Part shown: piece after piece, positions 1,436 through 13,625 of the stretch
Numbering within the stretch: position 1 is the first letter of the stretch
How the letters are laid out: every line of letters begins with the position of its first letter
UHGV virus genome: UHGV-0069434
Origin: a virus
Length of the DNA stretch: 13,657 bases
Reading direction: 5' to 3' (one strand)
Notes under the pieces: model-generated
The model's database searches: none
The model's input: only the letters and a program-made list of their open reading frames with translations
Told to the model about the DNA's origin: nothing
Program-made: the position numbers and the translations under genes

Positions 1436-1447
1436 GCAGTAATGAAA

Positions 1448-2272
1448 TCAGGCGGTGAAAGTACCAATAAAGGTTTCTACTTTGCTGTCTTTGAATTTCT
1501 CAACAAGCAGATCACGAAATTCGTTAGCCATTTCTTCCTGCACCGCTTCCAGCTGAATAATGCGCAGAACCAGTACAGGACGATCGCCAGTGATAATGCT
1601 GAGGCGTAATTTAAACGGACGTTCTTTCAGACCTTCAAACGGAACGCATTTAAATTCAAATGTCACTGGCATAATGTCTTTGGTCTTCGCTTCGACAGAC
1701 TCCATCAGGGAGCGTTTGCCGCTGAAGTCATTATCTTCAAAATCAGCGGTCTGGTTCGCTTCAATTGTGATTTTACGGATCGCCGCAGCCGCTTTGGTTG
1801 CCTGAATGGCGTCACCATTAGCATCAAAGCCCACAAGATAGTCGGCCCAGTCTTCAATCCATTCTGCCAGTGACTTCTGGGAGTTACGCTCGCCGTTAAC
1901 AGACAACAGGGCAGAGAACGGTGCTGTCTTTTTCAGTTTGAGAGTGGCGGTGTTATCTGCGTGACCTGGTTCATCAATAGTACCCAGGTTAAGCACACTG
2001 ACGGCTCGCATATTATCGGCATCGATAAAGCAGCGGGTGCCTTCATCTGCAAGATCTTTAGAATAACGGGTAAAGTCATCGATGCTGGCAGTGGAAAGCG
2101 CACCACGGAAACGGAAGCGATTTAAATTAAATTTTTCCAGATCATGAATGCGGAAATTCTCAGGCAATGCCACAGCATCGGCACCAATCTTACTGATAAT
2201 TTCATTAACACCCTGAGCAGAAATAAGGGCATGGATTTGATTAATTGCGGTTGCGTCTAAGTTCTGAGACAT
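1448..2272 (-). CDS. yfdQ: DUF2303-like phage protein, 274 aa (YfdQ-like)
   Basis: ORF track; ATG at 2272 preceded by GAGGA about 6 nt upstream. Length and position match CPS-53 YfdQ (274 aa, from memory). No catalytic motif recognised. Confidence 0.65.
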
Positions 2273-2337
2273 AATAAGTCCTCACTATATAAAGATATTC
2301 AGTGATGAGATAAATAATCAGTTTATTAAGAACGATA

Positions 2338-2700
2338 TTAATGACCTGCTGCGCGTAGTTTTCCGTCAGGTTCACCGGCAAGAGTCAGTAATTGTCCCTG
2401 GTCTTCCTGCAGAATAGTCAGGCGACCACCGCGATTGACATACATCGGCGTTTCGGTGGTGTCTTCTTCGGAAATTTTCCCGCGGTTAGTTGGGCGAACA
2501 TATGAGAGTTTGTGTTTGATTTTCACACGGTTCTCATCAAACGGTTCGATTTCCAGGTTGAGCGAGACCTTACCTTTGGTTTTCGTGTTCATCACACCGG
2601 AAGCGACTTCACTGAGAACTGCGCCGAGTTTGGTTTCAAATACGCCGCCGTCCAGCTCCCCGATAAATGCCTGCACATCAGTACTGCGTTCGCTAGCCAT
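2338..2700 (-). CDS. yfdP: Hypothetical phage early protein, 120 aa (YfdP-like); first gene of the leftward early operon
   Basis: Track ORF 2338..2931 (197 aa) has a long N-terminal extension. Internal ATG at 2700 (MASERSTDVQ...) is preceded by AGGAG 7-8 nt upstream and gives exactly 120 aa, matching CPS-53 YfdP length from memory. The upstream extension runs through a structured inverted-repeat region. Confidence 0.55.
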   Translation of the reverse strand: MASERSTDVQAFIGELDGGVFETKLGAVLSEVASGVMNTKTKGKVSLNLEIEPFDENRVKIKHKLSYVRPTNRGKISEEDTTETPMYVNRGGRLTILQEDQGQLLTLAGEPDGKLRAAGH

Positions 2701-2748
2701 TTTGCTGCTCCTCATCATATCGACCCTGCAAGGTCGGTTGGTTTCTCC

Positions 2749-2837
2749 ACAAAACAGAGAAGAACACCTGCGGTGACTGCCGCCCGGATGGATTGGGTTA
2801 TGAGCCCGTCGTCCGGTGATTCTCTTCTCTGTTTTGT
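2749..2837. repeat. Perfect 15-bp inverted repeat (ACAAAACAGAGAAGA at 2749..2763; TCTTCTCTGTTTTGT at 2823..2837) separated by 59 bp, in the leader upstream of the yfdP-like gene
   Basis: Read directly from the sequence; the arms are exact reverse complements. The spacer contains further short inverted repeats (CCGG-rich). Confidence 0.6.
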
Positions 2838-3308
2838 AAAAAGAGCGGTACCAGCCGGAAGCAAGGGTACAAACTGGTACCGCCAAAGCAGTGGCTGTTG
2901 TGGTGGGGTTGTCACTCAGGCGTATGGTCAACCTGACAATCCGGTGCCCTCAACGGGGAAAGAGTAACCCCGCCATACTTACCGCCGCGCCATTTCGCGG
3001 ATTACCACAACGCTGAGAGCACTTAGCCAGTTACGGCACCACACTTTGTCGCGGCTCCATAAATGCCCTCATCGTTGCACCCTGGTCTCTTCCCAGGCGT
3101 CAAACCGAATCGCCACGCTGGTTAGGCGTCTTATCAGCATCATCATTGACTTGCACATTCCGGCTACCTGGTTTGTTTGCCCGAGCAAGGAGTGGATTGT
3201 CCCCTTTAACGTCCCCAGACCGCTAACGACGCATGTGCCATACGCCGTGTTACAACCAAATTTTGTTAGTACCTTGTTTGTTTGTCTGGAAAGAAAGATA
3301 AAATGAAG

Positions 3309-3323
3309 TTGCGCATTATGCAA
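3309..3323. promoter_or_regulatory. Operator site OL-a: TTGCgcattatGCAA (TTGC-N7-GCAA palindrome)
   Basis: 15-bp site with palindromic ends read directly; the same architecture recurs at 3333..3347 and 4092..4106, flanking the repressor gene on both sides. Confidence 0.5.
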
Positions 3324-3332
3324 GTGTTTTTG

Positions 3333-3347
3333 TTGCGAGATATGCAA
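3333..3347. promoter_or_regulatory. Operator site OL-b: TTGCgagatatGCAA
   Basis: Second copy of the TTGC-N7-GCAA motif, 9 bp from OL-a. Confidence 0.5.
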
Positions 3348-3361
3348 TTTAAAGGGTAATG

Positions 3362-3383
3362 AAAAGCCACCTTTGGGTGGCTA
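3362..3383 (-). terminator. Intrinsic terminator downstream of the cI-like repressor gene
   Basis: Minus-strand transcript: AGCCACC-caaa-GGTGGCT hairpin (7-bp GC-rich stem) followed by TTTTCATT, about 20 nt after the repressor stop codon (3403..3405). Confidence 0.5.
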
Positions 3384-3402
3384 ATTGATGAGGAGGTAAG
3401 GG

Positions 3403-4071
3403 TTAATTGTGTCGCTTAAGGGTTTGTGACCGTCTGATTAAGACCTTTCCAAAGACCATAAACCGGTGTTCATTTTCGCTGGTAATTCCCCATTCACGGT
3501 AAATCTGGTTATCAGAAATCACCAGTAGTTTGTCAGGTATCATTTGCAGTCGTTTGACATAAATTTTATCATCAAAACCAAATACATAGATACCATCTCC
3601 ATCAAACTGATTGATACTGACATCAACGAAGATGAGATCTCCTGGCTCAATGGTTGGACACATACTGTCCCCACGAACGTTGATAACTTTAATGTGATTG
3701 GCTGGCCGTCCGCCAAACATCGATACAGCATTATCAGTTCTGTATTCAATGGCATGAATCACATCAATGACATCACCGCCCTGGATAAGGCCATTTCCCG
3801 CACTGGCACTGACATCCAGCATTTCAATACGGAATACATCCTTCACCTGCGCAACATCCTCACTAATACTGTTTTTACATACAGTATTACTTTTGACGTC
3901 TGAGGTAAAGAGATCAGCAATATCAACACCTAAGCTCCTGGCAATATTACTCAGGGCTTGTTCAGTGAATTGTTTCTGCTTACCTGTTTCCAGTCCTATT
4001 GCTTCAGCGAGATCGGCGATTTTCATGTTCTTCGCCTGGCGAAGTTGTCTGACTCGGTTTCCTATGTTCAT
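3403..4071 (-). CDS. cI-like prophage repressor, 222 aa: N-terminal XRE-type HTH plus C-terminal S24 (LexA-like) autopeptidase domain
   Basis: N-terminus NRVRQLRQAKNMKIADLAEAIGLETG is a typical HTH; C-terminus has the S24 motif VRGDSMCPTIEPGDLIFVD and a candidate Ala-Gly cleavage site (SASAGNG). Divergent from a cro-like gene, with operators on both sides. Confidence 0.85.
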   Translation of the reverse strand: MNIGNRVRQLRQAKNMKIADLAEAIGLETGKQKQFTEQALSNIARSLGVDIADLFTSDVKSNTVCKNSISEDVAQVKDVFRIEMLDVSASAGNGLIQGGDVIDVIHAIEYRTDNAVSMFGGRPANHIKVINVRGDSMCPTIEPGDLIFVDVSINQFDGDGIYVFGFDDKIYVKRLQMIPDKLLVISDNQIYREWGITSENEHRFMVFGKVLIRRSQTLKRHN

Positions 4072-4168
4072 GCGTTTATTACATTTCTTTATTGCGCGTT
4101 AAGCAAATCAACTTGCGCAAAATATTTGCGTGAAATAATATGCTCATCACGCAATATGTGGAGGTCAT
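4072..4168. promoter_or_regulatory. OR region with divergent promoters (pR-like rightward for cro; pRM-like leftward for the repressor)
   Basis: Perfect operator TTGCgcgttaaGCAA at 4092..4106; palindromic TTGCGCAA at 4113..4120; weaker ATGCtcatcacGCAA at 4140..4154. Rightward: -35 TTGCGC (4113..4118), 17 nt, -10 TAATAT (4136..4141), then GGAGG before cro ATG 4169. Leftward: -35 TTGCTT (rc of 4101..4106), 17 nt, -10 TGTAAT (rc of 4078..4083), which places the start at or next to the repressor ATG (leaderless, as for lambda pRM). Confidence 0.5.
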
Positions 4169-4429
4169 ATGCAATCACCATTACGGAATATGCGTAAGGC
4201 GCACGGATTTACTTTGCAGCATGTTGCTGCTGGCGTTCAGGTCAATCCAGCGACGCTGAGTCGTATTGAAAGACTGGAACAAATTCCATCTATCGATCTT
4301 GCAGAACGTCTGGCCAATTTTTTTAAGGGTGAAATCAGCGAAATGCAGATTCTTTATCCGGCACGTTTTCAATCTAGCCAAAACCAGAATGGGTTTAAAC
4401 CACAGGAACAGGAGGTAAGCCGTGGGTAA
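4169..4429 (+). CDS. Cro-like HTH (XRE family) regulator, 86 aa
   Basis: ORF track; HTH signature GFTLQHVAAGVQVNPATLSRIERLEQIPS; divergent from the repressor; GGAGG 4 nt upstream of ATG. Confidence 0.75.
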   Translation: MQSPLRNMRKAHGFTLQHVAAGVQVNPATLSRIERLEQIPSIDLAERLANFFKGEISEMQILYPARFQSSQNQNGFKPQEQEVSRG

Positions 4430-4973
4430 TCATCACTGGAAAGTGGAAAAACAGCCTGAGTGGTACGTGAAAGCTGTCAGAAAAACTATCGCGGCGTTGC
4501 CGGGGGGTTACGCTGAAGCTGCTGAGTGGCTGGATGTAACAGAGAACGCATTATTTAACCGCCTTCGTGCCGATGGCGATCAGATTTTCCCGCTGGGATG
4601 GGCAATGATTTTACAACGTGCTGGTGGCACTCACTTCATTGCCGACGCTGTGGCGCAGTCTGCAAATGGCGTCTTTGTGTCTCTTCCTGACGTCGAGGAT
4701 GTGGACAACGCCGATATTAACCAGCGCCTGCTGGAAGTCATTGAACAGATTGGCAGTTATTCCAGACAGATTCGTTCGGCAATCGAAGACGGTGTGGTGG
4801 AACCGCATGAGAAGACAGCAATTAACGACGAGCTGTATCTCTCAATTTCGAAGCTGCAGGAGCATGCAGCACTGGTCTACAAAATCTTCTGCGCTCCAGA
4901 AAAGAGTAACGCCCGCGAGTGTGCAGCTCCGGGCGCCGTGGCGTGTCGTGACTGTGGAGAAACTAACGCATGA
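4422..4973 (+). CDS. CII-like early regulatory protein, 183 aa
   Basis: GTG start with GGAGG about 7 nt upstream; overlaps cro stop. Region [36 protein letters not shown] resembles the HTH and following helix of lambda CII as I recall it; position immediately after cro fits. Confidence 0.55.
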
Positions 4974-5308
4974 ACAGTTTAACAACACACTACCGTCGCT
5001 CGCAACTGATTGCGCTTCCTGTACCGGGTGGAAAAGCGAAGGTGGAGTATTGCTATGCAGTAAATGTACCAGGTGACAGGGAAATTGTAACCCACAGCTT
5101 TGCTGAGTGGGCTGTGGGAGATTTCAACCGGCAGAAGGAGACAGTCCTTTGCGACAAGTTAACCGCTGGTTCAAAGATCACTACGGAGTGCCCGTCAGAG
5201 TCATTCGTTGGGAGCCGGAAACACAACGAGTTATCTACCTCCGCGAAGGCTATGAGCATGAGTGCTTCAGCCCGCTCGAACAGTTTCGTCGTAAATTCAG
5301 GGAAATAG
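4970..5308 (+). CDS. Hypothetical protein, 112 aa in track; the N-terminal roughly 60 aa look protein-like, the C-terminal half is Ser-rich low complexity
   Basis: ATG overlaps the preceding stop (ATGA). The compositional change after about residue 60 coincides with the start of a better-looking ORF in another frame (5149..5328). Confidence 0.4.
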
Positions 5309-5328
5309 AGGTCGGTCATGAGCACTAA
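5149..5328 (+). CDS. Small protein, about 59 aa, alternative frame ([58 protein letters not shown])
   Basis: TTG at 5149 is preceded by AAGGAG (5135..5140) at 8-nt spacing. The translation has balanced, protein-like composition. Track lists the frame from GTG 5107, which lacks an SD. Stop overlaps the replication gene start by 11 nt. Confidence 0.4.
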
Positions 5329-6175
5329 ATTAACCGGCTATGTATGGGATGGTTGCGCTGCGTCAGGCATGAAATTATCCAGCGTGGCAATTATGGCCCG
5401 CCTGGCTGATTTCAGTAATGACGAAGGTGTGTGCTGGCCATCAATTGAAACTATTGCCCGTCAGATTGGCGCGGGGATGAGTACCGTCAGAACGGCTATC
5501 GCACGGCTGGAAGCAGAAGGCTGGTTAACGCGTAAGGCGCGTCGCCAGGGTAACCGCAATGCGTCGAATGTTTATCAGCTTAACGTTGCGAAGCTTCAGG
5601 CAGCGGCATTTTCTCAACTGTCAGATTCTGACCCGTCAAAATCTGACGCATCAAAATCTGACACGTCAAAATTTGATGTGTCGAAATCTGGCAAAAAAGC
5701 GGGTTTTCACCCGTCAGAATCTGGCGGGGATCCGTCAGTAAAATCAAAACAAGATCCACAAGTAACTTCAAAACCCTCTTGTCCGGTTGCGGCGCAACCC
5801 GACCCTGAAGTTGTGATTACCGACCAGGCAATTTTGGTTCTGACCCATTTGAACCAGATCAGCGGATCCCGGTATCAGAAATCAAAAACATCCCTGGAGA
5901 ACATCCGCGCCCGACTGCGTGAGGGATACAGCGTTGCAGACCTGCAACTCGTTATCGACCTGAAGCATGAGCACTGGCACGAGAACGACGAGCAGTACCA
6001 GTACATGCGGCCGGAAACGCTGTTTGGCCCGAAGAAATTCGAGAGCTATCTGCAAAGCGCTACCCGCTGGGATCAGAAGGGACGGCCTAAACGCGCTGAC
6101 TGGGGTGCGAAAAAGCGCGATGTGATGGCTTTTGGTCCGGTTGATACAACGATTCCAGAGGGGTTCAGAGGATGA
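5318..6175 (+). CDS. Phage replication initiator / replisome organiser (lambda O-like role), 285 aa
   Basis: N-terminal HTH-like region (VAIMARLADFSNDEGVCWPSIETIARQIGAGMSTVRTAIARLEAEGWL). C-terminal region (LTHLNQISGSRYQKSKTSLENIRARLREGY...HEHWHENDEQYQYMRPETLFGPKKFESYLQSA) resembles the conserved phage replication-protein C-terminal domain. Tandem iterons lie inside the gene. Confidence 0.7.
   Translation: MSTKLTGYVWDGCAASGMKLSSVAIMARLADFSNDEGVCWPSIETIARQIGAGMSTVRTAIARLEAEGWLTRKARRQGNRNASNVYQLNVAKLQAAAFSQLSDSDPSKSDASKSDTSKFDVSKSGKKAGFHPSESGGDPSVKSKQDPQVTSKPSCPVAAQPDPEVVITDQAILVLTHLNQISGSRYQKSKTSLENIRARLREGYSVADLQLVIDLKHEHWHENDEQYQYMRPETLFGPKKFESYLQSATRWDQKGRPKRADWGAKKRDVMAFGPVDTTIPEGFRG
5621..5726. 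repeat. Tandem 15-bp iteron-like direct repeats (core GTCAAAATCTGAC), putative phage origin of replication inside the initiator gene
   Basis: Read directly: CCGTCAAAATCTGAC (5633..5647), GCATCAAAATCTGAC (5648..5662), ACGTCAAAATTTGAT (5663..5677), GTGTCGAAATCTGGC (5678..5692), plus partial copies at 5621..5632 and 5711..5725. Each core has internal dyad symmetry (GTCA...TGAC). The repeats encode SKSD-type peptide repeats and generate the repetitive ORF artefacts at 5559..5771. Confidence 0.55.
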
Positions 6176-7071
6176 CGTTAAACAAATATTGCCAGGCGCT
6201 GGCGGCACTACGTAGCAAACCAGCCCACCAACTGAAAGAAGTTGGCGATCAGTGGCGGACGCCGGATCTGCTTTTTTGGGGGATCAACGCGCTATTTGGT
6301 CCATTAGTTTTGGACTTGTTTGCAGACGACGACAACGCGAAATGCCCGGTATGGTACACCGCCGAAGATAACGCGCTGGTGCAGGATTGGGCGGAAATGT
6401 TGGATTCAATCGGCGGGGCCGCATTCGGTAATCCACCCTATAGCCGCTCTCAGTACCACGAGAAACAGGCGATCACCGGCATGACCCACATCATGGATCA
6501 CACAATGGAGATGCGTGAAAAGGGTGGGCGTTATGTGTTCCTCATTAAAGCGGCGACAAGTGAAACATGGTGGCCGGAAGACGCCGATCACATCATGTTT
6601 ATTCGCGGTCGCATTGGTTTCGATCTCCCTGTGTGGTTTGTTCCTGCCGACGATAAGCAGAAACCCACAGGTGCTTTCTTTGCTGGTGCAATCGCTTTGT
6701 TCGACAAGACCTGGCGCGGCGAGCGTTTCAGCTACATCAGCCGTACCGATCTGGAGGAAAAAGGGAAGGCGTTTATGTCACTGGTCGAATTTGCCGCGGG
6801 AAAGGTTCAGCCACCAGCCACCATGGTGCCAGAGCAAGAAGAACCCATTGTAGCGCCAGCAGTATTACCTGATGTGGATTCGCGTATCTGGCCGCTTGAG
6901 GTTGGTCTGGTGTTCAACCAGGTTGAGGGGGCGGATTCTCTGGACGCATCGCAGCAGAACAAGCTGAAAGCGAACATTAACCAGCTGTGGCTTGAGCGTA
7001 TGCCAACCAGCGAAATCATTACTACTGCTGGTGGACTGGTCAGCAGCATGCAGGGGGCCATCAATGCGTGA
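6172..7071 (+). CDS. Phage-type N6-adenine DNA methyltransferase (phage Dam family), 299 aa
   Basis: LDLFADDDNAKCPVWYTAEDNALVQDWAEM...FGNPPYSRS matches the phage N6A-methyltransferase family signature including the NPPY catalytic motif. ATGA overlap with the replication gene stop. About 100 aa of C-terminal extension beyond the usual domain size. Corresponds in position to the yfdM fragment of CPS-53. Confidence 0.8.
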   Translation: MTLNKYCQALAALRSKPAHQLKEVGDQWRTPDLLFWGINALFGPLVLDLFADDDNAKCPVWYTAEDNALVQDWAEMLDSIGGAAFGNPPYSRSQYHEKQAITGMTHIMDHTMEMREKGGRYVFLIKAATSETWWPEDADHIMFIRGRIGFDLPVWFVPADDKQKPTGAFFAGAIALFDKTWRGERFSYISRTDLEEKGKAFMSLVEFAAGKVQPPATMVPEQEEPIVAPAVLPDVDSRIWPLEVGLVFNQVEGADSLDASQQNKLKANINQLWLERMPTSEIITTAGGLVSSMQGAINA

Positions 7072-9061
7072 GATTATCGTTGATAACTTTGCTGGTGGCG
7101 GTGGCGCATCAACGGGTATTGAACTGGCGATCGGGCGCAGCGTGGATATTGCGATCAACCACGACGAAAACGCCATTGCGATGCACAAGACGAACCACCC
7201 GGACACACTGCATTACTGCGAATCCGTGTTTGACGTGGATCCGGTAGCCGCCACTGGCGGTAATCCTGTCGGCCTGGCATGGTTTAGCCCGGACTGCCGA
7301 CATTTCTCGAAGGCCAAAGGCGCAAAGCCTGTGAAAAAAGAGATACGCGGTCTTGCCTGGATTGTTCTGCGTTGGGCACTGGCGAAGCGACCGCGCGTGA
7401 TGATGCTGGAGAACGTGGAAGAGTTCAAAACGTGGGGACCGTTAATTGACATCCCGCCTAAACCTGATTTGCCGGAAGCCCTTATGGCGGATTTTATTGG
7501 CCCGGTTTACCCTGGAAATAGTCGCCCAGACCCTGCCCGCACTGGAGAAACATTCAATGCATTTGTCGGCATGCTGTCCACTGGCATTCCTGCTGATCAC
7601 CCGGCACTGTCAGAGGTTTGTGAGTTTCTGTCTATTGAAAGAGGTAGCGAGCAGGCGCAACAGTTGGTGGATGGGCTTGGATATGATGTCGATTATCGCG
7701 AACTGCGCGCGTGTGATTACGGCGCGCCGACGATCCGCAAACGCTTCTTCATGGTCATGCGCTGCGATGGTTGTCCAATCCAGTGGCCTGCTGTTACCCA
7801 TGGGGATCCTAAGTCTCTGGAGGTGCAGAGCGGCAGGCTGATGCCATGGCGTACCGCTGCGGAATGTATCGACTGGAATGTTCCGGCCCTGTCCATCTTC
7901 GACCGCAAAAAACCGCTGGCGGAGAACACTCTGAAGCGGATCGCGCGCGGCATACAGCGCTTTGTTATCGAAAGTGCGTCGCCGTTTATCGTGAAGTGTA
8001 ACCACACAAGCTCAAAAAATTCGTATGACGCTTTTCGCGGGCAGTCGCTGAATGAGCCATTACAGACCATTACTAAAAAACTCGGCTACGCGTTAGCCGT
8101 TCCACACCTGACAAAATTCCGCACTGGCGCAACCGGGCAGCCCGTTACCGAACCAGTCCCGACGGTAACCGCTGGCACATCAAAACGTCCAGGTGGGAAT
8201 GGGCATGCACTCGGGATTGTTGAGGCTGCACTGACGCCATTCCTGGCGGGTAATGGCGGGAGTGAATACCAGGCTAAACCGCGCCCGCTGGATAAACCTG
8301 CTCATACCATTCTGAAGCAATCCCGCGCCTGTCTTGTTGCGCCAGTGATAGCCCGCCAGTTTGGGGCCAGCGTAGGCCATCGGGCAGACGAACCGAGCGC
8401 AACCATCACCGCTGGCGGTGGCGGTAAATCTCAACTGGTAACGCCTACGCTGATCCAGATGGGTTATGGCGAACGACCTGGACAAGAACCGCGTGTGCTG
8501 CGGCTGGATAACCCGCTGGGGACCGTTACTGCAGGTGGAAATAAATTCGCGACGGTGAGCGCGTTTCTGGCGAAACACTACGGCGGTAACTACACGGGAC
8601 CGGGTGTCAGTATGGATGAACCCGCGCACTCAGTGACCACTGTCGACCATCATGCAGTAGTTGCCTCTCATCTGGTGAAACTGCGTGGAACATGCCGCGA
8701 CGGGCAGCGCCTTGATGTACCTATGCCAACCATCACCGCTGGAGGCCAGCACGTGGGTGAGGTGCGCACATTTCTCGAGACATATTGCGGGGAAAGTGAC
8801 GATGAATGGCTGGTAACGATCAATGGGGTTAAATACCAGATCGTTGATATCGGAATGCGCATGTTGCAGCCGCATGAACTCTACAAAGCGCAGGGCTTCC
8901 CGGATGGATACGTTATTGATCAGGACTACCGTGGAAATCGCTATGCAAAAGATAAGCAGGTAGCCCGCTGCGGTAATGCGGTACCACCACCATTCGCCAG
9001 GGCGCTGGTGGAGGCAAATCTTCCGGAACTTTGTGCAGTGCAACAACAGGAGGTGGCATGA
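7064..9061 (+). CDS. DNA cytosine-5 methyltransferase, 665 aa, with expanded repeat-containing variable region
   Basis: Motif I DNFAGGGGAS; Cys motif WFSPDCRHFS (PCQ-like variant); motif VI MMLENV; later QGFPDGY and CGNAVPP (motif X-like). I take ATG at 7064 (MREIIV..., G-rich SD, 8-nt overlap with upstream stop) rather than the track's upstream extension from 6992. Confidence 0.8.
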   Translation: MREIIVDNFAGGGGASTGIELAIGRSVDIAINHDENAIAMHKTNHPDTLHYCESVFDVDPVAATGGNPVGLAWFSPDCRHFSKAKGAKPVKKEIRGLAWIVLRWALAKRPRVMMLENVEEFKTWGPLIDIPPKPDLPEALMADFIGPVYPGNSRPDPARTGETFNAFVGMLSTGIPADHPALSEVCEFLSIERGSEQAQQLVDGLGYDVDYRELRACDYGAPTIRKRFFMVMRCDGCPIQWPAVTHGDPKSLEVQSGRLMPWRTAAECIDWNVPALSIFDRKKPLAENTLKRIARGIQRFVIESASPFIVKCNHTSSKNSYDAFRGQSLNEPLQTITKKLGYALAVPHLTKFRTGATGQPVTEPVPTVTAGTSKRPGGNGHALGIVEAALTPFLAGNGGSEYQAKPRPLDKPAHTILKQSRACLVAPVIARQFGASVGHRADEPSATITAGGGGKSQLVTPTLIQMGYGERPGQEPRVLRLDNPLGTVTAGGNKFATVSAFLAKHYGGNYTGPGVSMDEPAHSVTTVDHHAVVASHLVKLRGTCRDGQRLDVPMPTITAGGQHVGEVRTFLETYCGESDDEWLVTINGVKYQIVDIGMRMLQPHELYKAQGFPDGYVIDQDYRGNRYAKDKQVARCGNAVPPPFARALVEANLPELCAVQQQEVA

Positions 9062-9444
9062 AACTTGTGCTCCCGTTCCCTCCGAGCGTGAACACTTACT
9101 GGCGCGCCCCTAACAAGGGGCCGCTGGCCGGTCGTCACCTCATTAGCGCTGATGGCCGTAAATACCAGAGCGCTGCCTGCGTGGCGATCATTGAGCAATT
9201 ACGACGTCTCCCGAAGCCATCGACTGAACTGGCAGCGGTAGAAATCACTCTGTACCCGCCGGATGCGCGCCGCCGGGATATCGATAATTACAACAAAGCC
9301 CTGTTTGACGCGCTGACACATGCGGGTGTCTGGGAAGACGACAGCCAGATTAAGCGCATGCTGGTGGAATGGGGACCCGTTGTGCCGAAAGGTCGGGTAG
9401 AGATAACGATCAGCAGATATGAACCGGCGGGTGCAGCCGCCTGA
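9058..9444 (+). CDS. rusA: Crossover junction endodeoxyribonuclease RusA (Holliday junction resolvase), 128 aa
   Basis: MKLVLPFPPSVNTYWR...DARRRDIDNYNKALFDALTHAGVWEDDSQI matches the RusA family (PPS-N-xYW N-terminus, catalytic Asp cluster). ATG at 9058 with GGAGG upstream and ATGA overlap with the methyltransferase stop; the track's upstream extension is rejected. Confidence 0.85.
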   Translation: MKLVLPFPPSVNTYWRAPNKGPLAGRHLISADGRKYQSAACVAIIEQLRRLPKPSTELAAVEITLYPPDARRRDIDNYNKALFDALTHAGVWEDDSQIKRMLVEWGPVVPKGRVEITISRYEPAGAAA

Positions 9445-9457
9445 TATGGAGAAAAGT

Positions 9458-10144
9458 ATGAGCCAGTTAATCGTGAATGGTGTTGTAACAATGTCCAGCC
9501 GTGATATTGCGGATCTGGTTCAGAGTAAACACAGTGACGTGAAACGCTCGGCTGAGCGTCTTGTTGCTGCGGGAATTTTAACCGCGCCGTTGGCGCAGTT
9601 CGATTTTGAGCATAACGGTAATGTTTACCAGGAGTATCGTTTTAACAAACGCGACTCTCTGGTGATTGTTGCCAGACTGTCACCTGAATTTACCGCCGCG
9701 GTTGTCGATCGCTGGCAGGAACTGGAAGAAGGGCAGAGTGTCAGTGTTCCCCGCTCATTGCCGGAAGCGCTTCGCCTGGCTGCTGATTTAGCCGAGCAGA
9801 AAGAGCAACTGACCATCCAGCTGGCAGCTGCGGCGCCAAAAGTGGAGTTTGTTGATCGTTATTGCTCTGCAAAAGGCTCCATGTCATTCCGGCAGGTAGC
9901 CAAATTGCTCAACGCAAAAGAAACTGAGTTCCGCCTGTTCCTTATTGAACGCAATATCCTGTATCGCCTCGGCGGCACACTTACCCCTATGGCGCAGCAC
10001 ATTTCCGCGGGAAGATTTGAAGTTAAGACGGGAACATCGAGCACATCCAATCACGCATTTAGCCAGACGCGTTTCACTGCCAAGGGAGTACGCTGGATTG
10101 GTGGTTTGTGGGCTGAACATATTGCAGGGGGACAGGCGGCGTGA
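9458..10144 (+). CDS. Phage antirepressor, 228 aa: Rha-type N-terminal domain plus KilA-C/ANT C-terminal domain
   Basis: N-terminus VTMSSRDIADLVQSKHSDVKRSAERL...YRFNKRDSLVIVARLSPEF is typical of Rha; C-terminus FRQVAKLLNAKETEFRLFLIERNILYRLGG is KilA-C-like. Start at ATG 9458 (GGAG 6 nt upstream) preferred over track start 9419. Confidence 0.75.
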   Translation: MSQLIVNGVVTMSSRDIADLVQSKHSDVKRSAERLVAAGILTAPLAQFDFEHNGNVYQEYRFNKRDSLVIVARLSPEFTAAVVDRWQELEEGQSVSVPRSLPEALRLAADLAEQKEQLTIQLAAAAPKVEFVDRYCSAKGSMSFRQVAKLLNAKETEFRLFLIERNILYRLGGTLTPMAQHISAGRFEVKTGTSSTSNHAFSQTRFTAKGVRWIGGLWAEHIAGGQAA

Positions 10145-11136
10145 GGGCTTTGTTAACTCCTGAAGTCGCCCATCGTATGGGGATTGTGTTGTTTCGTCCC
10201 GGCGCGGAACTGATGCACCTCTTCATGCGTGGTCGCGTTCTGCTCGAGCCTGAACCAGAAGAAATGGCGTCATTCAGTACAGGGGCTGTTCCCGCCGCCA
10301 TTCAGACGCTGGCTGATGATCCGGTAATGCGGCAGGTCTTCGGGAATGAGCGGGTTATTCAGCGTGCCGGTGGGCTTCCTTCCCTTGAGCAGTGGCTGAG
10401 TTCTCGGTTTGAATGCCAGTGGCCACATTCATCGTGGCACGACAAGAATTTCACAACAATGCGGCACCCACCAGGAAGTATTCGCCTGTGCTGGCATTGC
10501 GATCACACTTTGTCGGGGCAGCATACCGAACAGCTTGCAGGTATAGCGGCAGGAAACCTGGTATCCTGGATTCTGGAAGTCATTCGGCGTGATTCTGGTT
10601 TTCCCGAGTCGCATATCCTGACGCTTCCGGAACTGTGCTGGTGGATGGTCAGAAACGACCTGGCTGATGTTATTCCGGAAAGCGTTGCGCACAAGGGGTT
10701 ACGCCTTCCGGATGAGAAGATCCGCTCGGTCATGAGGGAAAGCGACATTGTGCCTTCCGCTTCTGCAACCAGCCTAGTGCAGGAGAAGGCGAAGAAGATC
10801 CTCACGCTCTCTGTTGATCCGGAGTCTCCAGAATCTTTCATGCTCAGGCCAAAGCGACGCCGCTGGATAAATGAGACTTACACCCGCTGGGTTAAAACAC
10901 AACCCTGTGAGTGTTGCCGACGGCCAGCCGATGATCCGCACCATATCGTAGGGCACGGTATGGGGGGGACAGCAACAAAAGCCCATGATCTCTTCGTGAT
11001 CCCTCTGTGCAGAGAGTGCCACGACGAGTTACACGCCGATGTACCGGCATTCGAGCAGAAGCATGGTACGCAGCTTGAGCTGCTACTGCGTTTTATGGAT
11101 CGGGCGCTGGCGATCGGCGTAATTGCGAAAGCTTAA
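10141..11136 (+). CDS. Phage protein with C-terminal Cys/His-rich HNH-like nuclease motif (DUF968-like), 331 aa
   Basis: GTG start overlapping the previous stop (GTGA). C-terminus CECCRRPADDPHHIVGHGMGG...LCRECHDELH is a zinc-binding HNH-like signature. Sits where nin-region nucleases are found in lambdoid phages. Confidence 0.6.
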   Translation: MRALLTPEVAHRMGIVLFRPGAELMHLFMRGRVLLEPEPEEMASFSTGAVPAAIQTLADDPVMRQVFGNERVIQRAGGLPSLEQWLSSRFECQWPHSSWHDKNFTTMRHPPGSIRLCWHCDHTLSGQHTEQLAGIAAGNLVSWILEVIRRDSGFPESHILTLPELCWWMVRNDLADVIPESVAHKGLRLPDEKIRSVMRESDIVPSASATSLVQEKAKKILTLSVDPESPESFMLRPKRRRWINETYTRWVKTQPCECCRRPADDPHHIVGHGMGGTATKAHDLFVIPLCRECHDELHADVPAFEQKHGTQLELLLRFMDRALAIGVIAKA

Positions 11137-11847
11137 GTGTATGGAGCGCAAAGAAGCATGAATCAACAAGATCTGAATTTTGTAAGAATAGAATTGCGCC
11201 ACGCGCTACCTGACCTCTCTGGGGGAACAAAAGGGCAGCTTGAGGCTTTCAGTGAACACCCACCAGCAGACAAAAATGCCACCCCGCGCCGTGGAATTCA
11301 TCTCGTCGAACTCGAAGGAGAGAAGGGGCCACGCTTTGTTAACTCGCTTTCCGCGCCACTGTATGTGATGGAAACACGCAGCCGCCGCAGGCCAATGCCG
11401 CCGATAAAAGATGCGGAATTTGAGTCAGCGCCGTGGCGTAGGGCAGTGTCCGCGCTTAGTGGATACCAGCAGGCCTGGTTGCGGTACTGCTACGGTTTTG
11501 ACCTTAGCTATAAGCACCAGGTGATGATGTGTGAATACGTCTGGAAAACTTATCAGAAATGCCTGGGTGATAACTCGCTTCAGGAGCGCGTAGTAAAGAA
11601 ACTGATAGGCCTGGTATGGCTGGCAGGGCAGGAAATTGCCGCAACCAGAAATAATGAAACCTATAAAGACTATGCTGGTGCAGCGTTGGCCCGCATGGTT
11701 AGCGTTGACCGTTCGACATGGTTGCGTGTCTATTCAGGCCACTGGGCTGGGTTAAAGACCGCTTTTACGCAGCTTGATGAATCTGCGTTGACCATGGCTC
11801 TTGAATACTATGAGGAAGAAGAAGCCCTCAAAGTGGCAGAAATGTGA
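11137..11847 (+). CDS. Putative late-gene antiterminator (Q-like by position), 236 aa
   Basis: Last gene of the rightward early operon, immediately followed by a promoter-like region and a strong intrinsic terminator, which is the Q / PR' / tR' arrangement. No sequence motif recognised with confidence; an alternative ATG start lies at 11158. Confidence 0.45.
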   Translation: MYGAQRSMNQQDLNFVRIELRHALPDLSGGTKGQLEAFSEHPPADKNATPRRGIHLVELEGEKGPRFVNSLSAPLYVMETRSRRRPMPPIKDAEFESAPWRRAVSALSGYQQAWLRYCYGFDLSYKHQVMMCEYVWKTYQKCLGDNSLQERVVKKLIGLVWLAGQEIAATRNNETYKDYAGAALARMVSVDRSTWLRVYSGHWAGLKTAFTQLDESALTMALEYYEEEEALKVAEM

Positions 11848-11869
11848 AGTAAATTTCACTATCTCCTTC

Positions 11870-11930
11870 AAACGCGCTTGCAAAATGCAACAAAATAAGC
11901 CATATTTAAAGCATATTTGATATGTTGCCA
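11870..11930 (+). promoter_or_regulatory. Candidate late promoter (PR'-like), possibly with a Q-utilisation site
   Basis: -35-like TTGCAA at 11878..11883 with A/T-rich -10 candidates downstream (CATATT, TATTTA, TATTTG); exact hexamers are ambiguous. Positional inference. Confidence 0.3.
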
Positions 11931-11939
11931 ATGGTTTAT

Positions 11940-11966
11940 AAACCCGCCGATGAGCGGGTTTTTTTA
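11940..11966 (+). terminator. Rho-independent terminator (tR'-like): AAACCCGC-cgatga-GCGGGTTT followed by a T-run
   Basis: Read directly: GC-rich stem 11942..11947 / 11954..11959 with 6-nt loop, then TTTTTTT to about 11965. Confidence 0.7.
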
Positions 11967-12087
11967 TGGCAAATCAGCCATGCACGGCGCATAAAGGCGC
12001 TGGCGGTCGCAGAATGGAATTCTTCTCTTGCTGGTATCACCAACCAGAGTTATCTGTATGTCACGCAACTAATTTTAGGTAAAAGAC

Positions 12088-12279
12088 ATGCTAAATCAGG
12101 AAGATATGACAGAAACGGCAAAGGCTGTTTTCAATGAATTAAGCGATAAACCAGCAACGGCCGGGGAGATTGCACTGAATACCCACCTCAGCCGCGAACG
12201 TTGCCAGCTCATACTTACGCAGCTGGTGATGGCGGGTTTATCTGATTACCAGTTTGGGTGTTATAAACGCCTCCAGTAA
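12088..12279 (+). CDS. Small hypothetical protein, 63 aa (57 aa from the alternative ATG at 12106), possibly DNA-binding
   Basis: ORF track. AGGT 7 nt before ATG 12088, and AGGAAG 4-5 nt before the second ATG at 12106. Helix-rich sequence AGEIALNTHLSRERCQLILTQLVMAGL. No homology check possible. Confidence 0.4.
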   Translation: MLNQEDMTETAKAVFNELSDKPATAGEIALNTHLSRERCQLILTQLVMAGLSDYQFGCYKRLQ

Positions 12280-12306
12280 TGGGGGCTTTCTGCTGTGGAA
12301 ATGGGC

Positions 12307-12337
12307 GGCTGGTGGGTGTTAGCGCACCCGGCCAGCC
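12307..12337 (+). other. Stable GC-rich stem-loop (about 12-bp stem with one bulge, 6-nt loop) in the 5' leader of the methyltransferase gene
   Basis: GGCTGGTGGGTG-ttagcg-CACCCGGCCAGCC read directly; no following U-tract on either strand. Confidence 0.4.
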
Positions 12338-12429
12338 ATCAGCTCATGCTTTCAGGTCACAAGCTAACCAAGGCCCACTGCTTTAGCGCAAAAGCAACGT
12401 GAGCCTATCAGAGTTACGCTTACTGATCT

Positions 12430-13482
12430 ATGAAAAATACTGTAAAAATAAACAGTGTTGAGTTAATCAACGCTGATAGCCTGCATTACGTCGCCACCCT
12501 CCCGGATAACTCTATTGATCTGATAGTTACGGATCCTCCGTACTTCAAAGTGAAGCCCAACGGCTGGGACAACCAATGGAAGGGGGACGAGGACTACTTA
12601 CGCTGGCTTGATAGCTGCCTGGCTGAGTATGCTCGCGTTCTTAAACCTGCTGGCAGCATCTACCTGTTTTGCGGTCATCGACTGGCCTCAGACATAGAGA
12701 TTATGATGCGTGCCCGGTTCAACATTTTGAATCACATCATCTGGGCAAAGCCATCGGGCCGCTGGAATGGTTGTAACAAAGAAAGCCTGCGCGCGTATTT
12801 TCCATCAACGGAACGGATTTTGTTTGCTGAGCACTATCTTGGGCCGTACACAGGTAAAGAGGATGTTTACGAAAGGAAAAGCACAGAGCTAAAGCAGCAT
12901 CTTATGACGCCACTGATTGACTACTTCCGTAATGCCCGTGAATCACTGGGTGTCAGCTCGAAAGAAATAGCTGAGGCAACCGGAAAGAAAAACATGGCGT
13001 CACACTGGTTTGGTGCAAGCCAATGGCAACTACCAAATGAAGTGGACTATAGAAAATTGCAGGAACTGTTCACGAGGATCGCTATCGATAAGCACATTCA
13101 GCAGAAGCTTGAACATCCTCACCACCAGCTGGTAGCCACCTATCAGTCATTAAACCGCAAGTATTCAGAATTGCTGGAGGAATACAAAACCCTCCGGCGC
13201 TGCTTCTCTGTTTCCGTTCTTGTTCCGTATACCGACGTATGGACGCATAAGCCTGTTCAGTTTTATCCAGGCAAACATCCATGCGAAAAACCTGCCGACA
13301 TGCTGAAGCAGATCATTAGCGCCAGCAGCAGACCGGGGGATATCGTTGCCGATTTCTTTATGGGCTCTGGTTCAACTGTGAAAGCTGCAATAGAACTTGG
13401 TCGTCGGGCGATCGGCGTAGAACTGGAAACCGACAGGTTTATTCAAACCACCGAAGAGGTGGAAAAACTCAACAAAACATAA
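12430..13482 (+). CDS. Beta-class amino-methyltransferase, probably N6-adenine (motif IV before motif I), 350 aa
   Basis: N-terminal SIDLIVTDPPYF (DPPY motif IV) and C-terminal DIVADFFMGSGSTVKAA (FxGxG AdoMet motif I), with a roughly 200-aa intervening target-recognition region. Weak SD at the ATG. Confidence 0.8.
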   Translation: MKNTVKINSVELINADSLHYVATLPDNSIDLIVTDPPYFKVKPNGWDNQWKGDEDYLRWLDSCLAEYARVLKPAGSIYLFCGHRLASDIEIMMRARFNILNHIIWAKPSGRWNGCNKESLRAYFPSTERILFAEHYLGPYTGKEDVYERKSTELKQHLMTPLIDYFRNARESLGVSSKEIAEATGKKNMASHWFGASQWQLPNEVDYRKLQELFTRIAIDKHIQQKLEHPHHQLVATYQSLNRKYSELLEEYKTLRRCFSVSVLVPYTDVWTHKPVQFYPGKHPCEKPADMLKQIISASSRPGDIVADFFMGSGSTVKAAIELGRRAIGVELETDRFIQTTEEVEKLNKT

Positions 13483-13625
13483 CGATCATCACGCTCCCTG
13501 TTGCTGTGGTGATCACCATTTTCAGGCACCGGGAATCATCCTTACTTTTAATTGAACAAAAGAGCCCGGTTGCCTGATCCCCTCCAATCACACACAGCGC
13601 CATCCGAAAAATCGGAGGTGAGGCT

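What the first reader, a model, noticed from the sequence alone, without database searches (positions are those of the whole stretch)
7064..9061. Cytosine-5 methyltransferase with about seven tandem TRD-like repeats: candidate multispecific enzyme
Seen in sequence: the 665-aa protein has C5-MTase motifs (FAGGGG, SPDC-x2-FS, ENV, QGFPDGY, CGNAVPP) but is far longer than ordinary monospecific enzymes. The extra length is a variable region (roughly nt 8050..8760) with about seven repeats of 37-40 aa, each centred on P-x(2,3)-T-[IV]-T: LQTITKK, PTVTAGT, HTILKQ, ATITAGG, GTVTAGG, HSVTTVD, PTITAGG. Established knowledge: target-recognition domains of C5-MTases carry a conserved T-[LIV] dipeptide, and multispecific MTases of Bacillus phages (SPR, phi3T, rho11s, SPbeta) carry several tandem TRDs of about 40 aa, each giving one specificity. 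Inference: this enzyme may methylate several distinct target sequences, which would protect against many restriction systems at once. I do not know of this architecture being characterised in enterobacterial prophages.
Basis: partly seen in the sequence, partly recalled or inferred. Interest (0 to 1): 0.75.

Follow-up and report, generated by a model that had tools for sequence, protein, structure and literature searches.

The report
Seven-module phage cytosine methyltransferase
A prophage gene encodes a DNA cytosine-5 methyltransferase whose DNA-recognition region is a chain of seven short repeated modules, and tested relatives protect DNA from many different restriction enzymes, so it probably shields phage DNA at several target sequences at once.

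Summary
ORF 7064-9061 encodes a 665-aa C5-cytosine methyltransferase with all core motifs. Its variable region holds seven real repeats of 32-48 aa, each with a [DE]-x-P-x-x-T-[IV]-T core, plus the remnant of an eighth.

The protein belongs to a very large phage and prophage family (2,537 clusters at 50% identity, E<1e-30) with 1-11 such modules per protein. Near-identical enterobacterial proteins differ by clean loss, gain or swap of single modules, about 40 aa each. All seven modules are under strong purifying selection (dN/dS 0.03).

The modules sit where target-recognition domains (TRDs) sit. Their motif spacing matches the Bacillus-phage multispecific enzymes. Their profile aligns to the TRD core of HaeIII-like enzymes, but only weakly (P=3.6e-4).

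The Paracoccus prophage enzymes JCM7686_0772 and JCM7686_2655 partially protect against 16 of 28 restriction enzymes. ARM81mr_p29 from an Aeromonas phage is 45% identical to the window protein. The authors called both 'relaxed specificity'.

So multi-site methylation is likely. The idea that one module gives one specificity is untested, and AlphaFold gave no usable model of the modules. Verdict: a new member of a known but poorly understood family, of moderate interest.

The parts
7064..9061 (+). Complete gene for the 665-aa orphan C5-cytosine DNA methyltransferase, including the stop codon
   Evidence: Translation. Pfam PF00145 at E=3.7e-20. More than 8,000 homologs.
7064..7999 (+). N-terminal catalytic part, residues 1-312. 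It holds motif I FAGGGG, motif IV SPDC (catalytic Cys78), motif VI ENV and motif VIII TIRKR, then the conserved start of the variable region.
   Evidence: Motifs read and invariant across homologs. AlphaFold is confident over about residues 1-275. The fold matches 3g7u, M.HaeIII, DNMT1 and M.HhaI.
7445..7522 (+). Polymorphic insertion of about 24-26 aa in the catalytic domain (residues about 128-153, IDIPPKPDLPEALMADFIGPVYPGNS)
   Evidence: Present or absent among near-identical homologs (97-98% in aligned columns). AlphaFold confidence is low at 133-150.
8000..8101 (+). Module 1 (residues 313-346, core EPLQTITK). This type is always the first module in the enterobacterial clade.
   Evidence: Module HMM E=6e-9. 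Architectures.
8102..8242 (+). Module 2 (residues 347-393, core EPVPTVTAG)
   Evidence: Module HMM E=2e-9. Cleanly absent in Salmonella protein P0100.
8243..8341 (+). Module 3 (residues 394-426, core DKPAHTILK)
   Evidence: Module HMM E=6e-7. Cleanly absent in P0061.
8342..8437 (+). Module 4 (residues 427-458, core DEPSATITAGGGG)
   Evidence: Module HMM E=6e-10. 100% conserved against phage Phi06_2987.
8438..8554 (+). Module 5 (residues 459-497, core DNPLGTVTAGG)
   Evidence: Module HMM E=4e-9. Absent in P0004, P0043, P0061 and P0019. The same type is at least 65% identical in 68 Pseudomonas proteins, where it sits at a different position.
8555..8665 (+). Module 6 (residues 498-534, core DEPAHSVTTVDHHAV)
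   Evidence: Module HMM E=5e-11. Aligns to the core DEPAFTVNTIDRHGV of the TRD that I assign from memory to GGCC in M.SPRI, M.Rho11sI, M.H2I and M.Phi3TI, z=5.8-7.3.
8666..8770 (+). Module 7 (residues 535-569, core VPMPTITAGG). This is the last full module in the enterobacterial clade.
   Evidence: Module HMM E=2e-12. Architectures.
8771..8839 (+). Remnant of an eighth module (residues 570-592, FLETYCGESDDEWLVTINGVKYQ) that lacks the motif loop
   Evidence: Aligns to the complete module FLLKYYGTNIGHPADEPLQTVTTKHRFGLVTVHGEDY of ARM81mr_p29, with the loop missing in the window protein.
8840..9058 (+). C-terminal catalytic part (residues 593-665) with motif IX RMLQPHELYKAQGFPDGY and motif X CGNAVPP
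   Evidence: Pfam positions 267-321. Matches the DNMT1 C-terminus in the PDB.
6172..7071 (+). Upstream phage Dam-type N6-adenine methyltransferase gene. Its end overlaps the C5-MTase start by 8 nt, so the two are probably co-expressed.
   Evidence: Pfam PF05869 at E=3e-44. Coordinates.

Best explanation
The gene encodes an active, orphan, phage-borne C5-cytosine DNA methyltransferase. It has one catalytic core. Its variable region, between motifs VIII and IX, is a tandem array of seven independently evolving modules of about 37 aa.

Each module resembles the conserved core of a target-recognition domain: a Gly-rich loop, then [DE]-x-P-x-x-T-[IV]-T-A-G-G, then a hydrophobic strand. The enzyme is expressed from the early-right (replication/nin) operon during lytic growth, together with the overlapping Dam-type methyltransferase. 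It methylates phage DNA at several different short target sequences and so blocks many Type II restriction enzymes at once.

The most likely mechanism is the one shown for the Bacillus-phage multispecific enzymes. Different modules supply different specificities to the same catalytic centre, and phages change their repertoire by gaining, losing or swapping modules.

Shown here: the C5-MTase core, the real tandem modules, cassette-like variation, purifying selection, and membership of a family whose tested members protect many unrelated sites.

Inferred: activity of this allele, multi-site methylation by it, and the mapping of one module to one specificity.
For: Core and context
- The core is intact and the fold matches C5-MTases.
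- There is no restriction gene next to it. It lies in a lambdoid prophage in the order cI-cro-cII-replication-Dam-C5 MTase-RusA-Ant-DUF968-Q.
- Homologs in phages F116 and ARM81mr sit in the same kind of early or replication module. The F116 copy is flanked by two adenine MTases.

Modules
- There are seven significant modules.
- Near-identical proteins (97-98% in aligned columns; 88-93% over the whole BLASTP alignment) differ by clean single-module indels, and by two alternative module types at one site.
- In the enterobacterial clade, length = 382 + 40 x number of modules, r=0.88. The family range is 1-11 modules.
- There are 12 enterobacterial and 45 Pseudomonas architectures, and the same module type occupies different positions in different clades.
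- dN/dS is 0.03 for the modules and 0.056 for the core, and no module looks decayed.

Comparison with known TRDs
- The sequence count of T-[LIV] motifs in the variable region rises from 1 in M.HaeIII to 2 in M.Phi3TI, 3 in M.SPRI and 4 in M.Rho11sI/M.H2I, in step with the TRD numbers I recall for them. Spacing there is 30-48 aa; here there are 7 at 32-48 aa.
- The module profile's best match in every reference enzyme is the EPAFTV TRD core. Against a profile of eight monospecific enzymes it gives P=3.6e-4.
- Module 6 against the Bacillus-phage EPAFTV TRD core gives z of about 6-7.

Experiments on homologs
- The Paracoccus enzymes JCM7686_0772 and JCM7686_2655 partially protect AGCT, GGCC, CCNGG, CCWGG, CCSGG, CCGG, GCGC, GCGCGC, ACGT, CTCGAG, CAGCTG, RGGNCCY, GCCN5GGC, GCN7GC and CAGN3CTG.
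- They do not protect CGCG, GATC, CTAG, CATG, GANTC, CCATGG, CCWWGG, GGNNCC, ACGCGT, TCGCGA or CCGCTC.
- Their homolog Pyei1_p05, reported as about 69% identical to them, is 40% identical to the window protein over its full length and has 8 modules.
- ARM81mr_p29, reported as relaxed-specificity, is 45% identical over its full length and shares the module 6 and module 7 types.
Against: - There is no methylation data for this protein or for any close (over 50% identical) relative.
- One homolog, Phi2LM21_p23, was inactive in E. coli.
- Similarity of the modules to established TRDs is weak. There is no C5-MTase hit in the PDB with the module profile. HH probability is 2-6% against single sequences and 37% against a profile. 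Only one module resembles the M.HhaI TRD, at z=3.3.
- AlphaFold gave pLDDT below 50 for residues 285-596 and 39 for a three-module fragment. It is therefore unknown whether the modules are separate units or one composite domain.
- The first and last module types are fixed within a clade, which could mean they have a structural role.
- Motif IV is SPDC rather than the usual PPCQ.
Confidence: 0.58

Rival explanations
1. The enzyme has truly relaxed specificity. The seven modules fold together into one large composite recognition domain that tolerates many sequence contexts, for example a very short or degenerate motif such as CC or GC. Module number tunes affinity or processivity, not the list of targets.
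For: The authors of the only experiments describe relaxed specificity and partial protection at every affected site. The end of one module runs straight into the start of the next, for example ...ALVTA-HLVKL..., as in a continuous beta-repeat. Terminal module types are fixed within a clade. AlphaFold cannot separate the modules.
Against: Protection in the homologs is selective. ACGT and CTCGAG are protected but CGCG, ACGCGT and TCGCGA are not. CCNGG and CCGG are protected but CCATGG, CCWWGG and CCGCTC are not. One short degenerate motif does not explain this easily. At least seven unrelated 4-5 bp motifs are needed (my inference), close to the 8 modules in Pyei1_p05. Internal modules come and go singly between near-identical proteins, which a single tightly packed domain would tolerate poorly.
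Confidence: 0.25
2. Only one or a few modules are working TRDs, for example the one next to motif IX. The others are structural spacers or inactive pseudo-domains of the kind reported for some Bacillus-phage enzymes, so the enzyme has one to three specificities.
For: From my own knowledge, pseudo-domains exist in the Bacillus-phage enzymes. M.Rho11sI and M.H2I carry four T-[LIV] motifs but, as I recall, fewer known specificities. The window protein itself carries a decayed eighth module.
Against: All seven modules are under purifying selection at least as strong as the catalytic core: dN/dS is 0.006-0.11 per module where dS could be estimated (module 4 has dN=0) and 0.03 overall. The P and T of the motif are kept in at least 90% of 134 module types. 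Homologs protect many unrelated sites.
Confidence: 0.12
3. The protein is inactive, or it transfers a group other than methyl, or it acts on another substrate such as single-stranded DNA or RNA. In that case the repeats have nothing to do with double-stranded DNA target choice.
For: One homolog was inactive when expressed in E. coli. Motif IV is atypical (SPDC). A C5-carboxymethyltransferase with the same fold appears among the structural matches (8yf3).
Against: All catalytic motifs are invariant across the family and selection is strong. Homologs demonstrably block m5C-sensitive restriction enzymes. The protein has no special similarity to 8yf3 (E=0.044 over residues 5-82).
Confidence: 0.05

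Closest known systems
'Relaxed-specificity' phage m5C methyltransferases of about 560-700 aa studied by Dziewit, Radlinska and co-workers: JCM7686_0772 and JCM7686_2655 (Paracoccus aminophilus prophages), ARM81mr_p29 and ARM81ld_p31 (Aeromonas phages), Pyei1_p05, Phi2LM21_p23
   Same: They are full-length homologs. The window protein is 45% identical to ARM81mr_p29 and 40% to Pyei1_p05. They share the SPDC/ENV/GNAV core, the tandem modules (5 and 8 detected), orphan status, and a location in or near the prophage replication module. This is the family the window protein belongs to.
   Different: They carry a different set and number of modules, and only the module 6 and module 7 types are shared with ARM81mr_p29. 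No enterobacterial member has been tested. In the papers I could read, the repeats are not described and the behaviour is called relaxed specificity, not multispecificity. The 2016 J Gen Virol paper on the ARM81 phages is not held, so I could not check it.
Multispecific C5-methyltransferases of temperate Bacillus phages (M.SPRI, M.Phi3TI, M.Rho11sI, M.H2I, the SPbeta enzyme) and M.BssHII
   Same: The design is the same: one catalytic core with several tandem TRDs between motifs VIII and IX. Each TRD has a [SP]-x-T-[LIV]-[TS] core at 30-48 aa spacing. They are phage-borne orphans used against restriction. Module 6 resembles their EPAFTV (GGCC, from memory) TRD core.
   Different: The cores are not specifically related: motif IV is PCQ there and PDC here, and the similarity is only the generic PF00145 level. 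Those enzymes have 2-4 TRDs, against 7 here and up to 11 in the family. Module-to-TRD similarity is statistically weak. The one-TRD-one-specificity rule was shown experimentally only for the Bacillus enzymes.
Monospecific C5-methyltransferases M.HaeIII (GGCC) and M.HhaI (GCGC)
   Same: The catalytic fold and motifs are the same. The module profile aligns to the single TRD core of HaeIII-like enzymes, residues 220-247...RVRQWNEPAFTVQASGRQ....
   Different: They have one TRD core, against seven here. Their variable region is 117 aa, against 369 aa here. There is no significant match to the M.HhaI TRD except a weak one for module 5.
M.EcoGII, the non-specific adenine methyltransferase of an E. 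coli prophage, and phage Mu Mom
   Same: They have the same biological role: a phage or prophage enzyme, silent in the lysogen, that modifies DNA broadly to escape many restriction systems (review text).
   Different: The chemistry differs (N6-adenine or acetamido-adenine) and so does the fold. They have no tandem recognition modules.

Membership tests
C5-cytosine DNA methyltransferases (Pfam PF00145) | Score above the curated Pfam threshold | tested here: met
   73 bits against a cut-off of 22, E=3.7e-20, in three stretches. The NCBIfam TIGR00675 'dcm' model is below its own cut-off, 52.9 against 100.65, so the protein is not a Dcm equivalog.
C5-cytosine DNA methyltransferases (Pfam PF00145) | Conserved motifs in canonical order: I (FxGxG), IV (Pro-Cys with catalytic Cys), VI (ENV), VIII (RxR), IX, X (GN[AS]V) | tested here: met
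   FAGGGG 9-14, SPDC 75-78, ENV 116-118, TIRKR 223-227, RMLQPHELYKAQGFP 599-613 and GNAV 637-640. All are invariant in homologs. Motif IV is the variant P-D-C, not P-C-Q.
C5-cytosine DNA methyltransferases (Pfam PF00145) | Class I Rossmann-type catalytic fold like solved C5-MTases | tested here: met
   The confident part of the AlphaFold model matches 3g7u (E=1.8e-8), M.HaeIII (7.4e-8), DNMT1 and M.HhaI by Foldseek.
Relaxed-specificity phage m5C MTases (JCM7686_0772 / ARM81mr_p29 group) | Full-length sequence homology to tested members | tested here: met
   ARM81mr_p29: 44.7% identity over 3-665, E=0. Pyei1_p05, reported as about 69% identical to the tested Paracoccus enzymes: 40.2% over 4-665, E=3e-161. 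I could not obtain the JCM7686 sequences themselves.
Relaxed-specificity phage m5C MTases (JCM7686_0772 / ARM81mr_p29 group) | Orphan enzyme (no partner endonuclease) in a prophage early or replication module | tested here: met
   The neighbours are a replication protein, a Dam-type MTase, RusA and an antirepressor. No nuclease partner is present. The ARM81mr context is the same.
Relaxed-specificity phage m5C MTases (JCM7686_0772 / ARM81mr_p29 group) | Protection of DNA against many m5C-sensitive restriction enzymes | not testable with these tools
   Shown only for the Paracoccus enzymes and reported for the ARM81 enzymes.
Multispecific C5-MTases with tandem TRDs (Bacillus phage SPR type) | Several TRD-sized units in tandem between motifs VIII and IX, each with a T-[LIV] core | tested here: met
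   Seven units at 32-48 aa spacing, against 2-4 units at 30-48 aa in M.Phi3TI, M.SPRI, M.Rho11sI and M.H2I.
Multispecific C5-MTases with tandem TRDs (Bacillus phage SPR type) | Units are homologous to established TRDs | tested here: inconclusive
   The best profile match always falls on the EPAFTV TRD core, at P=0.006-0.02 against single sequences and P=3.6e-4 with 37% probability against a profile. Module 6 against the Bacillus-phage EPAFTV TRD gives z of 6-7. There are no PDB hits, and the M.HhaI result is negative except for module 5 at z=3.3.
Multispecific C5-MTases with tandem TRDs (Bacillus phage SPR type) | Units are separable: removing one leaves a working enzyme that lacks one specificity | not testable with these tools
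   Natural single-module deletion and insertion variants exist and are conserved, for example P0100, P0004, P0061, P0025 and P0093. This fits separability but does not demonstrate it.
Multispecific C5-MTases with tandem TRDs (Bacillus phage SPR type) | Close relationship of the catalytic core to the SPR, phi3T and rho11s enzymes | tested here: not met
   No Bacillus-phage MTase appears in the rows and organism counts shown for the window protein's phage search. The cores share only the general motifs and motif IV differs. The resemblance is one of design, not of family.

The most novel reading that the evidence does not exclude
The 'relaxed specificity' of this very large phage family may in fact be the sum of discrete specificities. 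Each would be carried by an autonomous mini-TRD of about 37 aa, with up to 11 per enzyme. Phages would shuffle these as cassettes, giving a combinatorial and rapidly re-programmable anti-restriction repertoire on one catalytic core. It would be much larger and far more widespread than the Bacillus-phage paradigm, and natural one-module variants would allow a module-to-motif code to be read directly.
Probability: 0.45. Interest if true: 0.72.

Novelty: new member of a known kind. Interest (0 to 1): 0.5.

Why it matters
If the modules are independent TRDs, this family becomes a general anti-restriction device of temperate phages across Proteobacteria and Actinobacteria, not a Bacillus curiosity. 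I found 2,537 clusters at 50% identity with E<1e-30.

It would explain the published 'relaxed specificity' in mechanistic terms.

It would also offer a natural deletion and insertion series for working out how one catalytic centre uses many recognition units. No structure of a multispecific C5-MTase appeared among the PDB matches here.

Practically, such enzymes could pre-methylate DNA to get past restriction barriers during transformation. They would also make phage or plasmid DNA a target for McrBC-type methylation-dependent nucleases.

They matter for reading 5mC methylomes of Salmonella, Citrobacter, Klebsiella and Enterobacter after prophage induction.

Tried and rejected
1. AlphaFold2 on the full protein with a 44-sequence alignment. 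The core was confident, but residues 285-596 had pLDDT below 50, so there is no information on the modules.

2. AlphaFold2 on modules 5-7 with an alignment of three-module fragments meant to add depth from paralogous modules. MAFFT aligned the fragments by orthology, and the model had pLDDT 39.

3. Single modules against Pfam gave no hits.

4. The module profile against all PDB sequences gave only chance hits to the herpesvirus protein UL34.

5. The module HMM against the Bacillus-phage enzymes and M.HhaI scored near zero bits. Self-BLAST of the protein found nothing off the diagonal. The repeats are old and diverged and are visible only with motif, Smith-Waterman and HMM statistics.

6. Repeats at the DNA level are weak, 64-71% over 28 nt. 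Recent slippage is therefore not the source, and no long repeats are present that would drive recombination within the gene.

7. A comparison of module identity with core identity across clades, as a test for module transfer, was noisy. Redone, it shows that the modules are more diverged than the core, except for the module 5 type.

8. An attempt to fetch the tested Paracoccus aminophilus genes from the genome collection returned other Rhodobacteraceae but not that strain.

9. The key Aeromonas ARM81 paper and the 1996 paper on TRD sizes are not held.

10. Literature searches for multispecific enzymes or tandem TRDs outside Bacillus found nothing.

11. The idea that the enzyme is a Dcm equivalog was rejected because it scores below the TIGR00675 cut-off.


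Full report
**The gene and its core**

ORF 7064-9061 (+) encodes 665 aa. Homologs begin at the same MREII, so the ATG at 7064 is the start. The protein has every C5-cytosine methyltransferase motif in canonical order:
- motif I, FAGGGG 9-14
- motif IV, SPDC 75-78
- motif VI, ENV 116-118
- motif VIII, TIRKR 223-227
- motif IX, RMLQPHELYKAQGFP 599-613
- motif X, GNAV 637-640

Pfam PF00145 scores 73 bits against a cut-off of 22. The Dcm equivalog model TIGR00675 is below its cut-off. By sequence, the N- and C-terminal parts match solved C5-MTases (3g7u, DNMT1, M.HaeIII, M.HhaI). The confident part of an AlphaFold model matches the same structures by Foldseek. The core identification is secure.

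**The repeats are real**

The motif P-x(2,3)-T-[IV]-[TL] occurs six times against 0.10 expected, and none of 20,000 shuffles reach that count. The seven segments are mutually similar, with a sum-of-pairs Smith-Waterman z of 17. They fall into a 'TITAGG' subclass (modules 1, 2, 4, 5, 7) and a 'PAH' subclass (modules 3, 6).

I seeded an HMM on the seven segments and iterated it over 511 family proteins. It finds exactly seven modules in the window protein (E from 6e-7 to 2e-12) and none in a shuffled database. Spacing is 32-48 aa. At the DNA level the repeats are barely detectable, so the duplications are old. Residues 570-592 are the remnant of an eighth module that has lost its motif loop.

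**The family**

The protein is not an oddity.
- A search of 1.84 billion cluster representatives gives 8,344 clusters at E<1e-3 and 2,537 at E<1e-30. Among the 150 best matches listed, lengths run from 403 to 1,113 aa.
- tblastn finds homologs in 349 phage records. Hosts include Aeromonas, Vibrio, Pseudomonas (F116), Myxococcus (Mx4), Caulobacter, Gordonia, Mycobacterium and Arthrobacter.
- The exact protein is on a 13,657-bp metagenome contig. Its 90% cluster has 1,124 members, mostly Salmonella enterica and Citrobacter freundii.
- In complete E. coli genomes the gene is rare at the DNA level, with 13 of 5,426 genomes matching and all of them only partially. The flanking prophage backbone is common.

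**Cassette behaviour**

Enterobacterial proteins that are 97-98% identical in aligned columns differ by clean indels that coincide with single modules:
- module 2 is absent in P0100;
- module 3 is absent in P0061;
- module 5 is absent in P0004, P0043, P0061 and P0019;
- an extra module follows module 6 in P0025, P0040 and P0107, and a different extra module sits at the same site in P0093 and P0115.

In this clade, length = 382 + 40 x number of modules, r=0.88. Across the family there are 1-11 modules, median 6. There are 12 architectures among 120 enterobacterial proteins and 45 among 120 Pseudomonas proteins. The same module type sits at different positions in different clades; for example, the module 5 type is fifth in Enterobacteriaceae and second in Pseudomonas. 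Overall the modules are more diverged than the core, with best-match identity of 31-47% against 66% for the core. That is what is expected of a specificity region.

Within a lineage the modules are strongly constrained. Against Escherichia phage Phi06_2987, dN/dS is 0.03 for the modules and 0.056 for the N-terminal core. No module looks decayed (this is one pair, and synonymous sites are near saturation).

**Are the modules TRDs?**

Position says yes. They fill the segment between motifs VIII and IX, where all C5-MTase TRDs lie.

Design also says yes. I retrieved M.SPRI, M.Rho11sI, M.H2I and M.Phi3TI and counted T-[LIV]-[TSNQ]-[TSA] motifs in their variable regions. The counts are 3, 4, 4 and 2, at 30-48 aa spacing. 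M.HaeIII has 1. These counts track the numbers of TRDs reported for those enzymes, which I am quoting from memory. The window protein has 7 at 32-48 aa.

Direct sequence similarity is only weakly supportive.
- The module profile finds no C5-MTase in the PDB.
- Pairwise HH comparison places its best match on the EPAFTV TRD core in all five reference enzymes (I recall this TRD as the GGCC one), but at P=0.006-0.02.
- Against a profile of eight HaeIII-like monospecific enzymes the match is to residues 220-247, at P=3.6e-4 and 37% probability.
- Module 6 (DEPAHSVTTVDHHAV) aligns to DEPAFTVNTIDRHGV of the Bacillus-phage EPAFTV TRD, z=5.8-7.3.
- Only module 5 resembles the M.HhaI TRD, at z=3.3.

Structure prediction did not help. 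Residues 285-596 have pLDDT below 50, and a three-module fragment scored 39.

**Published experiments on relatives**

The 2025 EcoSal review cites only the Bacillus temperate phages for multiple TRDs in one polypeptide. My searches found no paper describing tandem TRDs elsewhere. A Warsaw group has, however, tested homologs.

Dziewit et al. 2014 (PMC3925955) expressed two Paracoccus aminophilus prophage m5C MTases, JCM7686_0772 and JCM7686_2655, in E. coli. They found 'relaxed substrate specificity'. Their Table S6 shows:
- partial protection against 16 enzymes: AluI AGCT, BsuRI GGCC, Bme1390I CCNGG, EcoRII CCWGG, NciI CCSGG, HpaII and MspI CCGG, Hin6I GCGC, PauI GCGCGC, TaiI ACGT, XhoI CTCGAG, PvuII CAGCTG, EcoO109I RGGNCCY, BglI, HpyF10VI and CaiI;
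- full cleavage by 12 others, whose sites are CGCG, TCGCGA, GATC, GGNNCC, CCWWGG, CTAG, CATG, GANTC, CCGCTC, ACGCGT and CCATGG (two enzymes).

Later papers say that such phage proteins of about 700 aa are widespread, including in Gammaproteobacteria. They also report that ARM81mr_p29 and ARM81ld_p31 of Aeromonas phages have relaxed specificity, and that one homolog (Phi2LM21_p23) was inactive in E. coli. Pyei1_p05 is about 69% identical to the Paracoccus enzymes.

I tied these to the window protein. Pyei1_p05 (673 aa) is 40% identical over its full length (E=3e-161) and has eight modules. ARM81mr_p29 (565 aa) is 45% identical over its full length, has five detected modules, and shares the module 6 and module 7 types.

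The selective protection pattern needs at least seven unrelated short motifs: AGCT, GGCC, CCNGG, CCGG, GCGC, ACGT and TCGA/CTCGAG. That count is my inference. It is close to the eight modules in Pyei1_p05 and is hard to reconcile with one degenerate motif.

**Context**

The window is the early-right region of a lambdoid prophage. The gene order is:
- cI-like repressor (3403-4071, minus strand)
- cro
- cII-like gene
- replication protein (5318-6175)
- Dam-type N6-adenine MTase (6172-7071), which overlaps the C5-MTase start by 8 nt
- the C5-MTase
- RusA
- antirepressor
- DUF968
- Q

There is no restriction gene, so the enzyme is an orphan. A third MTase (PF01555) lies after a terminator-like site downstream of Q. 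The F116 homolog is flanked by two adenine MTases, and the ARM81mr homolog sits just upstream of replication gene O. This placement fits expression during lytic growth and protection of progeny DNA.

**Verdict**

The best explanation is a phage anti-restriction C5-MTase that methylates several distinct targets through a tandem array of TRD-like modules (confidence about 0.58).

The main rival is one composite domain with truly relaxed specificity (about 0.25). Less likely is that only a few modules are active (about 0.12).

The gene is a new member of a family whose broad protection is already published, so the function is not new. The modular, cassette-like basis and the size of the family do not seem to have been described in the literature I could search, and the available natural variants make them directly testable.

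Noticed in passing
window 6172-7071, 7064-9061 and 12430-13482: One 13.7-kb prophage segment carries three DNA methyltransferase genes of three different classes: a Dam-type N6-adenine MTase (PF05869), the C5-cytosine MTase (PF00145), and a beta-class N6/N4 MTase (PF01555). Phage F116 likewise has its C5-MTase homolog flanked by two adenine MTases.
   Followed up: partly
window 7064-7071: The C5-MTase start codon lies 8 nt inside the end of the upstream Dam-type MTase gene. This suggests that the two methyltransferases are translationally coupled.
   Followed up: no
window 8771-8839 (residues 570-592): The segment FLETYCGESDDEWLVTINGVKYQ is a degenerate eighth module. It aligns to a complete module of ARM81mr_p29 but lacks the part of the loop that carries the P-x-x-T-V-T motif. 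Some close relatives carry a 17-aa insertion (TLAVDEYDEYRAQQTLE) just before it.
   Followed up: partly
window 7445-7522 (residues about 128-153): A Pro-rich insertion of 24-26 aa in the catalytic domain, between motif VI and motif VIII, is present or absent among near-identical homologs. At least three sequence variants exist. AlphaFold confidence there is low. Its function is unknown.
   Followed up: no
window 7286-7297 (residues 75-78): Motif IV is S-P-D-C, invariant across the family, instead of the usual P-P-C-Q of C5-MTases. I did not examine what this means for catalysis.
   Followed up: no
window 11940-11961: A strong terminator-like hairpin (AAACCCGC...GCGGGTTT followed by a T-run) lies about 90 bp downstream of the antiterminator Q gene. 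This is the expected place for a late terminator read through by Q. The third MTase gene follows at 12430, which would put it in the late transcript. No tRNA genes are present.
   Followed up: partly
window 10141-11136: A 331-aa DUF968 protein with a weak HNH-nuclease-like match (PF16784, E=1.6e-4, below the curated cut-off) lies between the antirepressor and Q. It is not adjacent to the MTase, so I did not treat it as a restriction partner.
   Followed up: no
window 1-13657: The prophage backbone (yfdQ/DUF2303, DUF968, HTH genes) matches thousands of E. coli genomes at 90-99% identity. No E. coli genome covers more than 52% of the window, and the C5-MTase itself matches only 13 genomes, all partially. 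The MTase region is therefore a mosaic insert, most similar to Salmonella and Citrobacter alleles.
   Followed up: partly
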